Source: a virus | Taxonomy: Duplodnaviria > Caudoviricetes | Strand: one strand, 5' to 3' | Virus record (IMG/VR): IMGVR_UViG_3300029305_005280 | DNA: 64,000 nucleotides | In this document: in pieces, positions 1,324 to 11,123 of the stretch | Layout: each line of letters opens with the position of its first letter | Numbering within the stretch: the first letter of the stretch is position 1 | Program-made: the position numbers and the translations under genes | The notes under the pieces: generated by a model | What the model saw: only the letters and a program-made list of their open reading frames with translations | Told to the model about the DNA's origin: nothing | The model's database searches: none

Positions 1324-1412
1324 GGTAGCCGTGGTGGAATTGGTAGACACGCTGGATTGTGGCTCCAGTACTCTTTTGAGTTGTGAGAGTTCAAGTCTCT
1401 CCGGTTACCCCA
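1324..1412 (+). tRNA. tRNA-His(GTG) with atypical long variable arm
   Basis: CTGGA-TTGTGGC-TCCAG; encoded G-1 opposite C73; Leu-like D arm GTGGTGGAATTGGTAGACAC; variable hairpin ACTC-TTTT-GAGT. Confidence 0.9.
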
Positions 1413-3706: not shown

Positions 3707-4365
3707 TTCGTACCTTGAAAGATGTATACAATATAACTCAGTGATAAACATAAGGTACGCTCCTTATGCTGAGAGGAGCCCTAATTCTTCGGAAACGATT
3801 CCACGACAGAGAAACGTAAGAGGATACTCGGAAAAATGTCGTTACTTTGAGTAGTGATATTCAAAGTTGCAGAAGTAAACTTCAATGGAATGGGCTCTGT
3901 GCTGAGGTTATTGCAAGTAATGGTAAAGTGGGCATCGCACTCGTAATAGAGGCTATCGTTAATACCGATAGCTGAATCCAAGTTAGGATTTTAGCTGGTG
4001 ACTGTAATCAAACCTTGTGAAATACCACCAAGAGTGTTGGTCGTGATGTTCTTGAAAAAGAAAGTATAAGGTGCTCATCCAGTTTCCGAGTAGCCGAAGA
4101 CCAGTGGTAATTGAAGAAACAAATAATTTAGAAAGTAAGATTATCAAATTCTTCTGAATAGACGGTGAAAGGTGCAGGTAATCAGTCCTGCTATAGCTTG
4201 TGTGGTCCAGGGTCCCGCCGTTAACGGGAAGCCCAGACTTCGTGGCAAGAAGTTAGGGGTCGCTACCCGAAGCTCAGACTTGTCATCTATATGACCGAAT
4301 ATACTTGAAAATAATTATCAGTAATCCGAAGGGATAGTTGTTGTATATATCTTTAAAGGTACGAA
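3707..4365 (+). ncRNA. Large ornate ncRNA, ROOL-like candidate (GOLLD not excluded)
   Basis: 659 nt with no credible ORF between tRNA-Ala and tRNA-fMet; 25-bp terminal helix TTCGTACCTTGAAAGATGTATACAA / TTGTATATATCTTTAAAGGTACGAA; GC-richer than flanks with many hairpins. Confidence 0.65.
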
Positions 4366-5832: not shown

Positions 5833-7482
5833 ATGAGTAAATTATCTAAAGCAGTTGAAGCAATGCACGAAGATGTAGTGCTTCGTAAAGATGAAACAGA
5901 AGTTAACTTTATGGGTGGTGACTCCTACAAGTTAAATCCGCTTGAAACCTTGAAGATGATTAGTGCTTCTTCCATCTTTGGTGAACCTTCTTACTACCGT
6001 GACGGCAGAAGTGCAAAGAAAACACTTTACAAGGTAGACAGGCTTGTAAAAGATTGGCTCATTATTCCTGACCGCTATGTAGGTAAAAATACAGAGCAAA
6101 TCATGGAGTCTGCAATTGATGCAGCACTGGAGTATGATTTTGGCGCGACGCTTGAGTGGGCAACTACTTTGCGTAATGATTTCTTTATGCGTCTTAATCC
6201 TCAAGTCATTATGGTAAGAGCAGCTATGCATCCTAACCGTAAAGAATGGACCGAGGCTAATCCTGGCAAATTCAATGAATATAATCAGATGGTTATGAAG
6301 CGTGCAGATGAGCCTATGTCTCAGATGGCTTACTATCTGTATCTTAATAAAGGTAAGAAGAATAAGATTCCTTCTGTTATTAAACGCTCTTGGGCTGACA
6401 ATCTGAGCAAGCTGAATCGTTACAAGGTTGCTAAATACAAGAATCATGAAATTGGAATGATTAACGGTGTACGCCTTTGCCACGCAAATTCCAAAGTTCT
6501 TGATGAACTGATGACCAGTGGCACCGTTGAAGTTTCTGAGGATTCTAAAACTTGGGAAAATCTTCGTTCAGAAGGAAAGACCTGGGAAGAAATCTTTGAT
6601 ACTGTAGATATGGGCCATATGGCATTACTGAGAAATATCAGAGGCGTTTTCTCCGAATCTGACAACAAGGACCTTTTTGTAAGATACATGACTAAACTTA
6701 AATCAACTGTAAAAGATGGAAAGCAATTTCCTTTCAGATACTGGTCTGCAATCCAAGCTGTTCAAGGCAGTAACTGTAACTTTAAACCCTTAATCATTGA
6801 TGCCCTTGAAGAATGTATGGATATTGCGGTTGATAACTATCCCAAGCTAAGAGGCAAAACAATGTGCCTATCAGATAACTCTGGCTCTGCTTGGGGAGCT
6901 GTAACAACTGAGTACGGCTCTGTGACTGTTGCAAATATTGATAATCTTTCCTCTGTTATTACTGCAGCTTGTTCCGATGAAGGATATGTTGGTAAGTTTG
7001 GTGACAGATTGATTACCCATCCTATCAGCAAACGCAGAGGTATTCTGTCTCAAGCAGAAGCAATTACTCGTGATAGAGACCGAGATGTTGGCGGTGGTAC
7101 TGAAGGCGGTATCTGGGAATTCTTCAGAAGTGCTATTGATAAGAAAGAACACTGGGACAATATCTTTATCTATTCTGATATGCAAGCAGGACATGGTGGT
7201 CTGTATGGCACAAGTTCTCAATACAATGACTATCGTCGTAGAGGATATGATATTGGAAACCATATCAATGTGTTCAAACTTGTACAGGATTATAGAAAAA
7301 TTGTTAATCCCAAAGTAAATGTATTCTCTATTCAAACAGCAGGTTATACTAATAACTTGATGCCTGAGATGGCATACAGAACTGCAATTTTGAGTGGTTG
7401 GACTGGCAAGGAAGCTTCTTTTGCGGAAGAGTACATTCGTCAGTGGGATGAAATTGAAACAAAAAATTCTAAAAAGAATTAG
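5833..7482 (+). CDS. Ro60/Rsr-like TROVE-domain RNA-binding protein with C-terminal vWA domain
   Basis: 549 aa; N-terminal NFMGG..Y and FGEPSYY; MGHMALLRNIR; QFPFRY; vWA MIDAS-like CLSDNSGS, GGGT, IYSDMQ; own promoter at 5768. Confidence 0.9.
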   Translation: MSKLSKAVEAMHEDVVLRKDETEVNFMGGDSYKLNPLETLKMISASSIFGEPSYYRDGRSAKKTLYKVDRLVKDWLIIPDRYVGKNTEQIMESAIDAALEYDFGATLEWATTLRNDFFMRLNPQVIMVRAAMHPNRKEWTEANPGKFNEYNQMVMKRADEPMSQMAYYLYLNKGKKNKIPSVIKRSWADNLSKLNRYKVAKYKNHEIGMINGVRLCHANSKVLDELMTSGTVEVSEDSKTWENLRSEGKTWEEIFDTVDMGHMALLRNIRGVFSESDNKDLFVRYMTKLKSTVKDGKQFPFRYWSAIQAVQGSNCNFKPLIIDALEECMDIAVDNYPKLRGKTMCLSDNSGSAWGAVTTEYGSVTVANIDNLSSVITAACSDEGYVGKFGDRLITHPISKRRGILSQAEAITRDRDRDVGGGTEGGIWEFFRSAIDKKEHWDNIFIYSDMQAGHGGLYGTSSQYNDYRRRGYDIGNHINVFKLVQDYRKIVNPKVNVFSIQTAGYTNNLMPEMAYRTAILSGWTGKEASFAEEYIRQWDEIETKNSKKN

Positions 7483-7487
7483 TGATT

Positions 7488-7519
7488 TAGTTGATAAATG
7501 AAGCATAAAGCTTTATAAT
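7488..7519 (+). promoter_or_regulatory. Promoter driving the Y-RNA-like array
   Basis: TAGTTGATA-N17-TATAAT immediately after the Ro60 stop codon. Confidence 0.85.
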
Positions 7520-7551: not shown

Positions 7552-7658
7552 CTGCTTGATGCAGAGACAGATGCTTACTTCATTGGTTGAAAATTTGTCT
7601 TGAAAACGAATACAGCAGGTTCGAGTCCTGTATTAGCATCTTCATTATTCTCAAGCAG
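7552..7658 (+). ncRNA. Y-RNA-like unit 1 (insert: Ser-UGA anticodon arm plus T arm)
   Basis: Stem CTGCTTGA/TCAAGCAG, TGCAG, AGATGC/GCATCT, TTACTTC; ATTTGT-CTTGAAA-ACGAAT; GCAGG-TTCGAGT-CCTGT. Confidence 0.8.
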
Positions 7659-7680
7659 GACCTTCCTTTATGGAATAGTA

Positions 7681-7782
7681 TTTCTGATGCAGTAAATCAA
7701 GTTACTTCAGGCTTTGACTTTTAATCAAAATACCTAATAGACTTAAAATCTATCAATACACTTGATTTGATATTCTCAGAAA
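7681..7782 (+). ncRNA. Y-RNA-like unit 2 (insert: two anticodon stem-loops, Lys-UUU and Leu-UAA)
   Basis: Stem TTTCTGA/TCAGAAA, TGCAG, AAATCAAG/CTTGATTT, TTACTTC; TTTGA-CTTTTAA-TCAAA and ATAGA-CTTAAAA-TCTAT. Confidence 0.8.
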
Positions 7783-7803
7783 TTATTGTATAAAATATAT
7801 AAC

Positions 7804-7971
7804 ATGTGTGAAGCAGGGAGATTAGTTACTTCGAAAGGTTTGGTCTGTTAAACCCGAAGTCGTTGGTTCGAATCCAACCATTGTTAGTAACGGCGAGTGA
7901 AAGCAATGTAACTCAGCTGGAAAGAGTGCGTGTAAATTTAGAAATTTACTAATTTCATTATTCTCACACAT
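7804..7971 (+). ncRNA. Y-RNA-like unit 3 (YrlA-type circularly permuted tRNA with an Asn-GUU loop)
   Basis: Stem ATGTGTGA/TCACACAT, AGCAG, AGATTAG/CTAATTT, TTACTTC; order: anticodon arm (GGT-CTGTTAA-ACC), T arm GTTGG-TTCGAAT-CCAAC, closed acceptor CATTGTT/AGCAATG, D arm ACTC-AGCTGGAAA-GAGT. Confidence 0.85.
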
Positions 7972-7986
7972 CTATTTAAAAGTAAT

Positions 7987-8136
7987 ATTTACGATGCAGT
8001 CATATCAGTTACTTCGTTGCATTGGGTGCCTGGTGTCATTGGTTCGAGTCCAATATTCCCGCCCATTTATGCGGGAATTAGCTCAGTCGGTAGAGCACAG
8101 TAGAAATTATTAGCTGATATATTTATTCTCGTAAAT
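7987..8136 (+). ncRNA. Y-RNA-like unit 4 (YrlA-type circularly permuted tRNA with a Pro-UGG-like loop)
   Basis: Stem ATTTACGA/TCGTAAAT, TGCAG, ATATCAG/CTGATAT, TTACTTC; T arm ATTGG-TTCGAGT-CCAAT, acceptor ATTCCCGC/GCGGGAAT, D arm TAGCTCAGTCGGTAGAGCA. Confidence 0.87.
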
Positions 8137-8153
8137 TTTTAATTTGATGTTAT

Positions 8154-8274
8154 AGCTGAAGCAGACTACAGAGTTACTTCAAATACATAGTACTAATGTT
8201 ATATTATATAAAAGAACAAAATATGTTAGCCGTGAGCTTACATAGATAAACACTCTGTAACTTAATTCTCAGCT
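8154..8274 (+). ncRNA. Y-RNA-like unit 5 (AU-rich insert, no clear tRNA arm)
   Basis: Stem AGCTGA/TCAGCT, AGCAG, TACAGAG/CTCTGTA, TTACTTC, AATTCTC. Confidence 0.75.
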
Positions 8275-8280
8275 TTATTT

Positions 8281-8357
8281 GCGGGATTGGTGTTTAATGG
8301 TTAGCATCTCAGTCTTCCAAACTGATGGTGAGGGTTCGAGTCCCTTATCCCGCTCCA
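8281..8357 (+). tRNA. tRNA-Gly(TCC)
   Basis: TCAGT-CTTCCAA-ACTGA, GCGGGAT/ATCCCGC acceptor stem, TCCA end. Confidence 0.97.
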
Positions 8358-8593: not shown

Positions 8594-9148
8594 ATGCAAA
8601 AAGTAATTGTAACAGATATGGATGATGTTCTTGTTAATTTACTAGAACATTGGCTTGAATATCTTAATATTCGATATAATTGTAGGGTAGAATGTGAAGA
8701 TGTAGTTGAATGGGATATGTCAAAAGCATATCCAATGCTGACACCCGAACAACTTTATGGTGCTCTTAGTGATGAAGAACTGTGGAAAACAGTTACTCCT
8801 AAAGAAGATGCAATCAAATATCTTACACAATTGCATGACGAGGGTTATAAAATACTTGTTGCTACCGCAGCAAGCTACAATACGATAAAAACAAAACTTG
8901 TTAATGCACTATTTCCTTATTTCAAGTTTTTAACATATAAAGACATAATCATGATTCATGATAAGCATCTATTAAAATGTGATATTATTGTTGATGATTA
9001 TCATGAAAATCTTAAAGGTAGCGATGCAATAAAGATACTCGTTACCGCACCTTATAATCAACATTGTGACAAGATGATATATGATTTCCGTGTTAATGGT
9101 TGGAAAGAAATATATCAAATTATTCATGAATTGGAGAATGTACATTGA
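8594..9148 (+). CDS. 5'(3')-deoxyribonucleotidase (NT5C, HAD family)
   Basis: DMDDVL HAD motif I, VATA motif II, K..L..DIIVDD. Confidence 0.85.
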   Translation: MQKVIVTDMDDVLVNLLEHWLEYLNIRYNCRVECEDVVEWDMSKAYPMLTPEQLYGALSDEELWKTVTPKEDAIKYLTQLHDEGYKILVATAASYNTIKTKLVNALFPYFKFLTYKDIIMIHDKHLLKCDIIVDDYHENLKGSDAIKILVTAPYNQHCDKMIYDFRVNGWKEIYQIIHELENVH

Positions 9149-10157: not shown

Positions 10158-11123
10158 ATGGCACACGAAGTAGAAAACATTATGTATGTAAGCAATGAGG
10201 AAAATGGACGATTTGTTCCCTGGCACGGTTTAGGAACAGCAGTAGCAGAAGCACCTACCTCTGCAGAGGCAATTAAACTTGCAGGCCTTGATTGGGTAGT
10301 TGAATCTAAACCTGTATTTACTGACAGTGGAATTGAAATTCCTAACTATAAAGCAAATATTAGAGACATTGACCAAAAGGTTCTTGGTGTTGTTTCAAAT
10401 CGTTATCAGGTTGTACAAAATAAAGATGCATTTGACTTTACAGATGCTCTTATTGGAGAAGGGTGCCGATATGAAACAGCTGGTTCTCTTTGTGGTGGAA
10501 AAAGAATTTTCTTGCTTGCGAGAATGCCTGAATCAAAAATCTTAGATGACAGTTTTGAAAATTATATCTGTTTTACTAATAGTCACGATGGATTTTCTTC
10601 CATTAAAGCAGTTATGACTCCTGTAAGAGTTGTATGCCAGAATACATTAAGTCTTGCTCTTAGCAGTGCAAAGAGACAGTGGTCTACAAAACACATTGGT
10701 AATCTTGATAGTAAACTTGCAGAAGCAAGACATACTCTTGAACTTGCTAATGATTATATGACTGAATTTGGAAAAGCAGCAGATATTCTTGCTCATACTA
10801 AAGTTACTGATGCAGAAGTTGAAGCAATCCTCGATGAGTTGTTTCCTGTGAAAGAAGAAGATAGTGACCGTCGTAAAAGAAATATTCAGGAAGTTAAGGA
10901 CCAGTTTATGGTTTGTATGCTTGCTCCAGATATTCTTAAGTTTAAAGGTACTGCTTGGTCTGCAGTAAATGCAGCAAGTGACTGGGCAACACATACAGCC
11001 CCAAAGAGAATGACAGATAACTATCAGGAAAATAATTTTAATAGAGTACTTGATGGTCATATTGTTATTGATACTTTCTTCCAGAAGCTGATGGAAAAAG
11101 CAACAAGTAAAGTTATTGTTTAG
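10158..11123 (+). CDS. DUF932/DUF945 family protein (phage/plasmid-like TIGR03299)
   Basis: PWHGLG, AGLDW, YETAGSL.GG, NSHDG, TPVRVVCQNTL motifs. Confidence 0.88.
   Translation: MAHEVENIMYVSNEENGRFVPWHGLGTAVAEAPTSAEAIKLAGLDWVVESKPVFTDSGIEIPNYKANIRDIDQKVLGVVSNRYQVVQNKDAFDFTDALIGEGCRYETAGSLCGGKRIFLLARMPESKILDDSFENYICFTNSHDGFSSIKAVMTPVRVVCQNTLSLALSSAKRQWSTKHIGNLDSKLAEARHTLELANDYMTEFGKAADILAHTKVTDAEVEAILDELFPVKEEDSDRRKRNIQEVKDQFMVCMLAPDILKFKGTAWSAVNAASDWATHTAPKRMTDNYQENNFNRVLDGHIVIDTFFQKLMEKATSKVIV

What the first reader, a model, noticed from the sequence alone, without database searches (positions are those of the whole stretch)
7709..7753. Unit 2 is a bare double-anticodon RNA (Lys-UUU plus Leu-UAA) with no D, T or acceptor arm
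Two perfect 5-bp stem/7-nt loop hairpins (TTTGA-CTTTTAA-TCAAA; ATAGA-CTTAAAA-TCTAT) are essentially the whole insert. Two canonical CU-NNN-AA loops side by side are unlikely to be drift. Neither tRNA is among the 12 in this window. This is the cleanest evidence that the anticodon loop, not the tRNA elbow, is the selected element in some units.
Basis: seen in the sequence. Interest (0 to 1): 0.75.

Follow-up and report, generated by a model that had tools for sequence, protein, structure and literature searches.

The report
Phage Y RNA with anticodon arms
A small RNA gene beside a phage's Ro60-like protein carries, on a conserved handle, two copies of a tRNA anticodon arm and no other tRNA part (one arm is letter for letter that of bacterial lysine tRNAs), which suggests a bait or docking site for proteins that read or cut tRNA anticodons.

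Summary
The two hairpins are real (7713-7729 and 7737-7753) and are not chance. None of 20,000 composition-matched shuffles of the module gives two such hairpins. They make up the whole apical module of unit 2 (7680-7783). Unit 2 is the second of five tandem Y-RNA-like genes that follow a Ro60/TROVE gene (5833-7482) in a 156-kb phage. All five units share a covarying two-stem handle. A covariance model of unit 2 finds 112 such units in 45 sources (window plus related phage loci), all on the Ro60 strand.

Ten unit-2 orthologues keep the Lys-UUU arm almost letter for letter. The second arm is optional. Its stem covaries and its loop frame (C-U ... A-A) mostly stays, but its triplet changes (UAA, UGA, UCC). 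It is lost or replaced in three phages.

Across 100 distinct units, anticodon-type loops are as common as T loops, and both are nearly absent on the opposite strand. The Lys arm equals the anticodon arm of genuine tRNA-Lys genes in at least 118 genome hits, but not that of the phage's own tRNA-Lys.

Its identity as a Ro60-partner RNA displaying anticodon arms is well supported. Its function, as a decoy or docking site for anticodon-reading proteins, is inferred. I found no paper describing this. The scan has already noted the same theme in other phage genomes.

The parts
5833..7482 (+). Ro60/Rsr (TROVE + vWA) gene, 549 aa
   Evidence: Pfam TROVE scores 27.4 bits against a cut-off of 23. A profile of 23 homologues hits Thermus phage phiLo Ro60 (9KOP/9L5Y) at E = 1.7e-17. 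The AF2 model has pLDDT 81 and pTM 0.80. The top 12 listed Foldseek matches are all Ro60 or TROVE entries: 9kop, 9l5y, 9nep, 1yvp, 2nvo, 9nen and others.
7491..7519 (+). promoter-like site (11 of 12 consensus positions) between the Ro60 stop codon and unit 1
   Evidence: This is a consensus match only and has not been tested.
7552..7658 (+). unit 1: handle plus a nearly whole tRNA-like module (D-like arm, anticodon arm with Ser-UGA loop, T arm)
   Evidence: ARAGORN calls it tRNA-Ser and Rfam tRNA gives 26.3 bits, below the 29-bit cut-off.
7680..7783 (+). unit 2, the whole RNA gene of the finding
   Evidence: Model R1 scores it 120.1 bits. Ten orthologues score 98-125 bits. RNAalifold independently returns the same 31-pair structure.
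7680..7687 (+). outer stem, 5' strand (pairs with 7776-7783)
   Evidence: 2 of its 8 pairs show changes on both sides among orthologues. The stem differs in sequence but always pairs in all five units.
7688..7692 (+). conserved 5' internal-loop motif (U/A-G-C-A/G-G, preceded by G-A), the presumed Ro60 contact
   Evidence: Near-invariant among unit-2 orthologues (one has G in place of A) and shared by all five window units. The role is inferred by position from known Y RNAs (PMC4201824).
7693..7702 (+). inner stem, 5' strand (pairs with 7760-7769)
   Evidence: 4 of its 10 pairs show changes on both sides.
7703..7708 (+). conserved single-stranded motif U-A-C-U-U-C at the junction
   Evidence: Invariant in all five units and in the orthologues.
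7709..7735 (+). hairpin 1 with its 3-bp extension: 7709-7711 pairs with 7733-7735, stem 7713-7717/7725-7729, loop 7718-7724 (C-U-UUU-A-A)
   Evidence: The sequence is almost invariant in ten orthologues whose Ro60 proteins are 73-100% identical. The 17-nt arm is identical to the anticodon arm of 118 ARAGORN-confirmed bacterial tRNA-Lys(UUU) genes.
7737..7753 (+). hairpin 2: stem 7737-7741/7749-7753, loop 7742-7748 (C-U-UAA-A-A)
   Evidence: 3 of its 5 pairs covary. The loop frame is mostly kept while the triplet changes. The hairpin is absent or replaced in L310, L319 and L315.
7770..7775 (+). conserved 3' internal-loop motif (A-U-A-U-U-C)
7804..7971 (+). unit 3: handle plus a permuted tRNA-like module (anticodon-type loop with GUU, T arm, closed acceptor stem, D arm)
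   Evidence: Rfam YrlA gives 28.2 bits, below the 69-bit cut-off. Also.
7987..8136 (+). unit 4: handle plus a YrlA-type tRNA-like module
   Evidence: Rfam YrlA gives 32.8 bits, below the cut-off. Also.
8152..8276 (+). unit 5: handle plus a module with no tRNA-like part
   Evidence: 27.1 bits.
8281..8357 (+). tRNA-Gly(UCC), which directly follows the array and is possibly co-transcribed with it
   Evidence: No terminator-like site separates it from the array; the single terminator-like call is the T arm of unit 3.

Best explanation
Unit 2 (7680-7783) is a phage-encoded Y-RNA-like partner of the Ro60 protein encoded just upstream. Its two nested stems and the conserved internal-loop motifs form the handle that, by analogy with known Y RNAs, binds the Ro60 ring (inferred). 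Its apical module consists only of two mimics of the tRNA anticodon arm. Arm 1 is a fixed copy of a cellular-type tRNA-Lys(UUU) anticodon arm. Arm 2 is an optional second display site whose triplet is exchanged between related phages. The particle therefore presents anticodon arms to proteins that recognise them. The most likely targets are host nucleases that cut tRNA anticodon arms as an anti-phage defence. The RNA would act as a bait or decoy for them, or bring them to Ro60 and its associated nuclease (inferred, not shown). I put about 0.85 on the identity (a Ro60-partner RNA displaying anticodon arms) and about 0.35-0.4 on the decoy function. The confidence given is for the whole statement.
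For: Context:
- The upstream ORF is a Ro60 ring protein.
- Five tandem units start 70 nt after its stop codon, on the same strand.

Handle:
- The motifs are shared and the stems covary. 97.7% of cells are paired, 9 pairs show changes on both sides, and 0 of 500 shuffles reach this. Sliding the partners by 1-3 columns drops pairing to 31-46%.
- RNAalifold returns the same structure.
- Model R1 finds 112 units in 45 sources (window plus related loci), all on the Ro60 strand. My regex detector found 83 units on the plus strand and 0 on the minus strand.

Anticodon-arm mimicry:
- Among hairpins with a 7-nt loop in 100 distinct units, 40 of 172 have the loop C-U-N-N-N-A-H and 42 of 172 are T loops. 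On the reverse complement the figures are 1 and 3 of 187.
- The loops are identical to those of this phage's real tRNAs with the same anticodon: Lys, Leu, Ser and Asn in this window's units; Gly, Arg and Ser-GCU loops of relatives' units.
- Arm 1 is invariant while the neighbouring stems covary. It equals the arm of 118 real bacterial tRNA-Lys genes, whereas the phage's own tRNA-Lys has a different stem.

Triplet exchange:
- In orthologue pairs at least 80% identical, triplet sites differ at 21.8%, loop-frame sites at 5.9% and the rest at 11.7%.
- Unit 1 of L001 and unit 1 of L306 differ at only 3 of 108 positions, and all three lie in the triplet (UGA versus GUU).

Known biology:
- Y RNA modules tether Ro60 to partner proteins such as PNPase, including in a phage (PMC4201824, PMC12135203).
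- Bacterial defences cut tRNA-Lys(UUU), Asn(GUU) and Thr in the anticodon arm, and phages answer with variant tRNAs (PMC12409363, PMC11555353).
- UUU is the most frequently displayed triplet (14 of 44 anticodon-type loops).
Against: - There are no expression, binding or cleavage data of any kind.
- The handle lacks the published bacterial Ro60-binding motif (G-N-C-G-A-A; PMC4201824). Unit 2 does not match Rfam YrlA at all, and units 3 and 4 fall below the cut-off.
- The fold energy is not exceptional (z = -1.69).
- Arm 2 is dispensable in three relatives. Its stem is not that of any tRNA-Leu in the 5 plus 401 genomes searched.
- The match of arm 1 to real tRNA-Lys arms could be coincidental. 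Stems vary widely between species, and only 1 of 121 sampled genomes of that phylum has this arm, namely the genome used as the centre of the sample.
- At least one anticodon-arm nuclease (AriB) also needs contacts outside the anticodon arm (PMC12409363), so a bare arm may not bait every such enzyme.
- The host and its defences are unknown.
Confidence: 0.45

Rival explanations
1. It is the same RNA and the same Ro60 particle, but the anticodon arms are docking handles for housekeeping factors that read anticodon arms: wobble-base or position-37 modification enzymes, class IIb aminoacyl-tRNA synthetases, or the ribosomal decoding site. They would bring Ro60 and an associated exonuclease to those factors, or sequester them, as part of host takeover or RNA quality control rather than counter-defence.
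For: Y RNA modules are known tethers to host proteins (PNPase) and YrlA is modified by tRNA enzymes (PMC4201824, PMC12135203). Most displayed triplets begin with U or G, and these are the wobble bases that are heavily modified in bacteria (my own knowledge, not tested). Arm 1 is invariant across phages, which suits a conserved housekeeping partner.
Against: Rapid triplet exchange between near-identical orthologues is easier to explain by a changing adversary than by a fixed housekeeping partner. Ser and Leu synthetases do not read the anticodon (textbook knowledge).
Confidence: 0.27
2. The two loops pair with each other (an intramolecular kissing complex) to build a compact fold, and the resemblance to anticodon loops is a by-product.
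For: In the window the loops are complementary over six bases (positions 2-7 of one with 7-2 of the other), as read directly. The UGA variants keep this pairing with one G-U pair.
Against: The UCC variants (L308, L002) break the two central pairs with no compensating change in loop 1. In L002 both loops changed and they are still not complementary. Arm 2 is missing in L310 and L319 while arm 1 is unchanged. Single anticodon-type loops occur in units that have no second loop.
Confidence: 0.08
3. The hairpins are decaying leftovers of tRNA genes captured in the array, with no role of their own.
For: Other units hold larger tRNA pieces, and the array lies within a tRNA-rich region.
Against: Arm 1 is invariant while the flanking linkers and stems diverge. 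Arm 2's stem covaries. The loop frame is more conserved than the rest of the RNA, at 5.9% against 11.7% differences.
Confidence: 0.04
4. The hairpins are chance products of AT-rich sequence.
For: The stems are AT-rich and the fold energy is ordinary.
Against: 0 of 20,000 local shuffles and 0 of 100 window shuffles give such a pair. The hairpins are conserved in ten phages.
Confidence: 0.01

Closest known systems
Bacterial and phage Y RNAs YrlA/YrlB with Ro60 (Rsr): Chen et al. 2014, PMC4201824; Rfam RF02553
   Same: They are encoded next to a Ro60 gene and on its strand, often several per locus. The 5' and 3' ends pair into a stem with a conserved internal loop. The apical module mimics tRNA. 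Units 3 and 4 of this array have the YrlA arrangement of T arm, closed acceptor stem and D arm.
   Different: The handle motif differs (G-A-W-G-C-R-G and U-A-C-U-U-C instead of G-N-C-G-A-A). No unit reaches the Rfam cut-off. Published YrlA lacks an anticodon arm, because that position continues into the Ro60-binding stem. [quoted passage not shown] Unit 2 instead shows only anticodon arms, and there are two of them.
Deinococcus radiodurans Yrn1 (PMC4201824)
   Same: It was modelled with a possible anticodon arm with a 5-bp stem.
   Different: Its loop has 6 nt, not 7, and no anticodon-loop frame or triplet variation has been reported. The module binds PNPase.
Thermus phage phiLo Ro60 with Yrl1/Yrl2 (PMC12135203; PDB 9KOP, 9L5Y)
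   Same: It is the closest solved relative of the protein. It is a phage Ro60 shown to bind phage-encoded Y-like RNAs and to form a complex with host PNPase.
   Different: Yrl1 and Yrl2 carry the C-G-A-A motif. The paper mentions no anticodon or tRNA-like features (the terms 'anticodon' and 'tRNA-like' each occur 0 times).
Phage tRNAs that counter tRNA-cutting defences (PARIS AriB, retron Eco7, PrrC): PMC12409363, PMC11555353
   Same: They are phage-encoded RNAs with anticodon arms for Lys(UUU), Asn(GUU) and others, and they answer host nucleases that attack the anticodon arm.
   Different: Those are whole, chargeable tRNAs that replace the cut ones and carry escape mutations. Unit 2 cannot be charged, and it copies a cellular-type arm rather than an escape variant.

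Membership tests
Y RNA (Ro60-associated small RNA, broad sense) | Encoded close to a Ro60 orthologue and on the same strand (the criterion used in PMC4201824) | tested here: met
   Unit 2 starts 198 nt after the stop codon of the Ro60 gene, on the same strand. All 112 related units lie on the Ro60 strand.
Y RNA (Ro60-associated small RNA, broad sense) | The 5' and 3' ends pair into a stem interrupted by a conserved internal loop or bulge | tested here: met
   The outer and inner stems covary, and the loop motifs between them are near-invariant.
Y RNA (Ro60-associated small RNA, broad sense) | Carries the known Ro60-binding motif (G-G-U-C-C-G-A in animals, G-N-C-G-A-A-N0-1-G in bacteria) | tested here: not met
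   The 5' loop strand reads G-A-U-G-C-A-G. It sits in the same position but is a different sequence.
Y RNA (Ro60-associated small RNA, broad sense) | Physically bound and stabilised by Ro60 | not testable with these tools
   This needs immunoprecipitation or a gel shift.
YrlA (Rfam RF02553) | Reaches the family's gathering score (69 bits) | tested here: not met
   There is no match on 7680-7783. Units 4 and 3 score 32.8 and 28.2 bits.
YrlA (Rfam RF02553) | tRNA-like domain with a T arm, D arm and closed acceptor stem | tested here: not met
   Absent from unit 2 and present in units 3 and 4.
tRNA (RF00005) | Cloverleaf with acceptor stem, D arm and T arm | tested here: not met
   Neither ARAGORN nor Rfam finds a tRNA in 7680-7783.
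tRNA (RF00005) | Anticodon arm: 5-bp stem, 7-nt loop, pyrimidine 32, U33, purine 37 | tested here: met
   Met twice. The loops are identical to those of the phage's tRNA-Lys and tRNA-Leu.
Ro60 / TROVE protein (for the upstream gene) | HEAT-repeat ring plus a vWA domain with a MIDAS motif (D-x-S-x-S) | tested here: met
   The top 12 listed Foldseek matches are all Ro60 or TROVE entries, aligned over 511-600 columns. D348, S350 and S352 are invariant in 23 homologues. Pfam TROVE is just above its cut-off.

The most novel reading that the evidence does not exclude
Phage Ro60 particles carry an exchangeable panel of host-type anticodon arms. Each arm baits or senses one host anticodon-arm nuclease or another anticodon reader. 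Swapping just the three anticodon letters would then retarget the particle, which would make this an RNA-based counter-defence that evolves by triplet replacement.
Probability: 0.3. Interest if true: 0.85.

Novelty: new variant of a known kind. Interest (0 to 1): 0.62.

Why it matters
Ro60 and Y RNAs are conserved from bacteria to humans, yet what the variable Y RNA modules bind is known in only a few cases. Here the module is reduced to the one tRNA part that published bacterial Y RNAs lack. One arm is frozen and the triplets of the others change quickly between close relatives. That points to a readable specificity code on a Ro60 particle. It also links Ro60 biology to the current work on tRNA-targeting phage defences. 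The question is directly testable with short RNAs: which protein binds or cuts a 17-nt arm, and does the triplet decide it? The family is large: 3,764 Ro60 homologues at E <= 1e-50 among the 8,000 candidates scored, and 112 units in the loci examined.

Tried and rejected
Only L138 looked like a real unit.
- A unit-2-specific pattern in viral contigs added no new orthologue. More orthologues came instead from Ro60 homologues and their contigs.
- Single-sequence searches of the protein against PDB and NCBIfam found nothing. A profile and a predicted fold settled the question.
- RtcB was not found in the phage. The search for T4-type RNA ligase 1 was uninformative because its control rang nowhere.
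- The 17-nt sequence of arm 2 was not found in 5 genomes that have the arm-1-type tRNA-Lys, nor in 401 genomes of that phylum. Arm 2 is therefore not shown to copy a real tRNA-Leu arm.
- Host inference from arm 1 is not possible. The arm occurs in many gut Firmicutes but also in other phyla, and in only 1 of 121 sampled genomes of the phylum.
- Single-linkage clustering of units to count independent lineages failed, because the shared handle merges most units into two large clusters. I report counts per locus instead: 20 of 45 sources have at least one anticodon-type unit, including every array with two or more detected units whose Ro60 is at least 57% identical to the window's, except L013.
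- A terminator role is rejected: no U tract follows either hairpin.
- The kissing-loop idea is listed under the rival explanations.

Full report
WHAT IS THERE. The window is part of a 156,472-bp phage record judged 97% complete. At 7713-7729 and 7737-7753 there are two perfect hairpins with 5-bp stems and 7-nt loops. The loops read C-U-UUU-A-A and C-U-UAA-A-A. Hairpin 1 is lengthened by three more pairs (7709-7711 with 7733-7735). The predicted fold of 7670-7785 places both hairpins on a three-way junction above two nested stems. The energy is not unusual for this composition (z = -1.69), so the argument cannot rest on stability.

CHANCE.
- Strict anticodon-type hairpins occur 15 times on both strands of the window. 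Six are in real tRNAs, three are in the array discussed here, and six lie elsewhere.
- The six elsewhere match the 6.8 +/- 2.6 found in dinucleotide shuffles. No shuffled window contained two such hairpins within 40 nt.
- Shuffling the 58-nt module itself gave one such hairpin in 65 of 20,000 trials and two in none. The array holds three against 0.04 expected.

CONTEXT.
- The ORF at 5833-7482 hits Pfam TROVE just above the cut-off. Single-sequence searches of PDB and NCBIfam were empty.
- A profile of 23 homologues matches the Ro60 of Thermus phage phiLo at E = 1.7e-17.
- An AlphaFold model (pLDDT 81, pTM 0.80) has only Ro60/TROVE entries as its top 12 listed Foldseek matches: phiLo, Xenopus, Deinococcus and human. 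The MIDAS residues D348, S350 and S352 are invariant.
- After a promoter-like site (7491-7519) come five tandem units.
- Each unit has an outer stem, a conserved 5' loop motif, an inner stem, the motif U-A-C-U-U-C, a variable module, the inner stem's return strand, a conserved 3' motif, and the outer stem's return strand. The stems differ in sequence between units but always pair.
- Rfam's YrlA model touches units 3 and 4 below its cut-off, and its tRNA model touches unit 1.
- Together these features describe a Ro60 locus with several Y RNAs, as in PMC4201824, but with a different handle motif.

RELATIVES.
- The Ro60 protein has 53 related loci in viral contigs and 3,764 homologues at E <= 1e-50 among the 8,000 candidates scored. 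Contigs of the closer homologues supplied further arrays.
- A regex detector found 83 units, none on the opposite strand.
- A covariance model built from ten unit-2 orthologues found 112 units in 45 sources, all on the Ro60 strand.

UNIT 2 IN TEN PHAGES.
- With Ro60 identities from 73 to 100%, 97.7% of structure cells pair and nine pairs changed on both sides. No shuffle out of 500 reaches this, and slid partners give only 31-46% pairing.
- The alignment was fitted to the model. However, RNAalifold independently gives the same 31 pairs.
- The covarying pairs lie in the outer stem (2), the inner stem (4) and hairpin 2 (3). Hairpin 1 and its extension hardly vary at all. One orthologue has UCU for UUU, and one has a mismatch at the first stem pair.
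- Hairpin 2 keeps its frame but shows UAA (four orthologues), UGA (two) or UCC (two). The stem sequences differ in L001, L306 and L002.
- Hairpin 2 is missing in L310 and L319 and is replaced by a pentaloop hairpin in L315.
- Shorter units with one anticodon-type arm and no T arm occur in L004, L005, L006 and L007. L317 combines hairpin 2's stem with the Lys loop.

THE FAMILY AS A WHOLE.
- In 100 distinct units, hairpins with a 7-nt loop fall mainly into two classes on the sense strand. There are 40 anticodon-type loops and 42 T loops among 172. On the reverse complement the figures are 1 and 3 of 187.
- A third of the units have at least one anticodon-type arm.
- UUU is the most common triplet (14), followed by UGA (8), then UAA and GUU (4 each).
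- These counts are not phylogenetically independent. By locus, 20 of 45 sources have such a unit.
- In orthologue pairs at least 80% identical, triplet sites differ at 21.8%, the four frame positions at 5.9% and the rest at 11.7%. Unit 1 of L001 and unit 1 of L306 differ at three positions in 108, and all three are in the triplet.

COMPARISON WITH REAL tRNAs.
- The phage encodes 24 tRNAs, including Lys(UUU) and Leu(UAA) just beyond the window.
- The seven loop letters of hairpins 1 and 2, and of units 1 and 3, equal those of the phage's tRNAs with the same anticodon. The stems differ.
- The whole 17-nt hairpin 1, searched with a D-stem prefix, occurs at 121 places in 120 bacterial genome stretches. 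118 of these are ARAGORN tRNA-Lys(UUU) genes, and many come from gut Firmicutes. The flanks do not match, so the mimicry ends at the arm.
- This arm is a minority type, found in 1 of 121 sampled genomes of that phylum. The match may point to the host group or may be coincidence.
- Hairpin 2's 17 letters were not found in 406 genomes.

MECHANISM.
- Shown: the RNA structure is conserved; it is linked to Ro60; the modules carry anticodon-arm features; arm 1 is frozen and the triplets elsewhere are exchanged.
- Inferred from known Y RNAs (PMC4201824, PMC12135203): the handle binds Ro60 and the module recruits a partner.
- Inferred from the triplet exchange and from the literature on tRNA-cutting defences (PMC12409363, PMC11555353): the partners are most likely host nucleases that attack anticodon arms, with the RNA acting as bait or decoy.
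- A docking role for housekeeping anticodon readers is the main rival. A kissing interaction between the loops fits the window's own sequence but not the UCC variants or the one-arm orthologues.

NOVELTY.
- Full-text searches found Y RNAs with T, D and acceptor mimicry and a 6-nt 'anticodon loop' model for Yrn1. They found no description of Y RNAs that display genuine anticodon arms, alone or in pairs.
- The scan's own notes record the same theme on this genome (e1-5688787, e1-5688799) and in other phages (e1-5656911, e1-5643112, e1-5402594). I reached my reading before seeing these notes, and I tested it here on this DNA.

Noticed in passing
window 3713-4356 (+): A full-length ROOL RNA (Rfam RF03087, 284 bits against a cut-off of 99) lies between tRNA-Ala and tRNA-Met, 3.3 kb upstream of the Y RNA array.
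   Followed up: no
window 7572-7640 (+): ARAGORN calls a tRNA-Ser(UGA) here, but it is the module of Y-like unit 1 embedded in the handle. Automatic annotation would miscount it as a tRNA. ARAGORN makes similar calls (Lys, Thr, Ser, 'Stop') inside units of L008, L009, L011 and L041.
   Followed up: partly
L001:5725-5832 versus L306:4225-4332: These two orthologous units are identical except for the three anticodon letters (UGA versus GUU). This looks like a clean triplet replacement rather than scattered drift.
   Followed up: partly
L315:4639-4742 and L317:4706-4812: A hairpin with the pentaloop U-A-G-G-G recurs as another module type. In L315 it takes the place of the second anticodon arm of unit 2.
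   Followed up: no
window 7804-7971 and 7987-8136 (+): Units 3 and 4 hold circularly permuted tRNA-like modules (T arm, acceptor stem closed by a loop, D arm). In unit 3 and its orthologues, an anticodon-type loop precedes the T arm and its triplet varies (GUU, UUU, GCU).
   Followed up: partly
G000:C1:75401-75925 (-), outside the window: The phage has one gene of the RNA_ligase family (PF09414, 59.9 bits, 388-aa open frame). No RtcB was found.
   Followed up: no
window 1325-1412 (+): tRNA-His(GUG) is 88 nt long, which suggests a long variable arm. That is unusual for a bacterial-type tRNA-His.
   Followed up: no
window 8594-9148 and 10158-11123 (+): Downstream of the array lie a deoxynucleotidase gene (NT5C, E = 1.4e-30) and a DUF932 gene (E = 6.9e-60). 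NT5C keeps this position in L304, L306 and L315.
   Followed up: no
L138:22-93 (+): A metagenome contig holds a minimal 72-nt unit with the same handle and a very short module. It was the only convincing hit of the metagenome scan.
   Followed up: no
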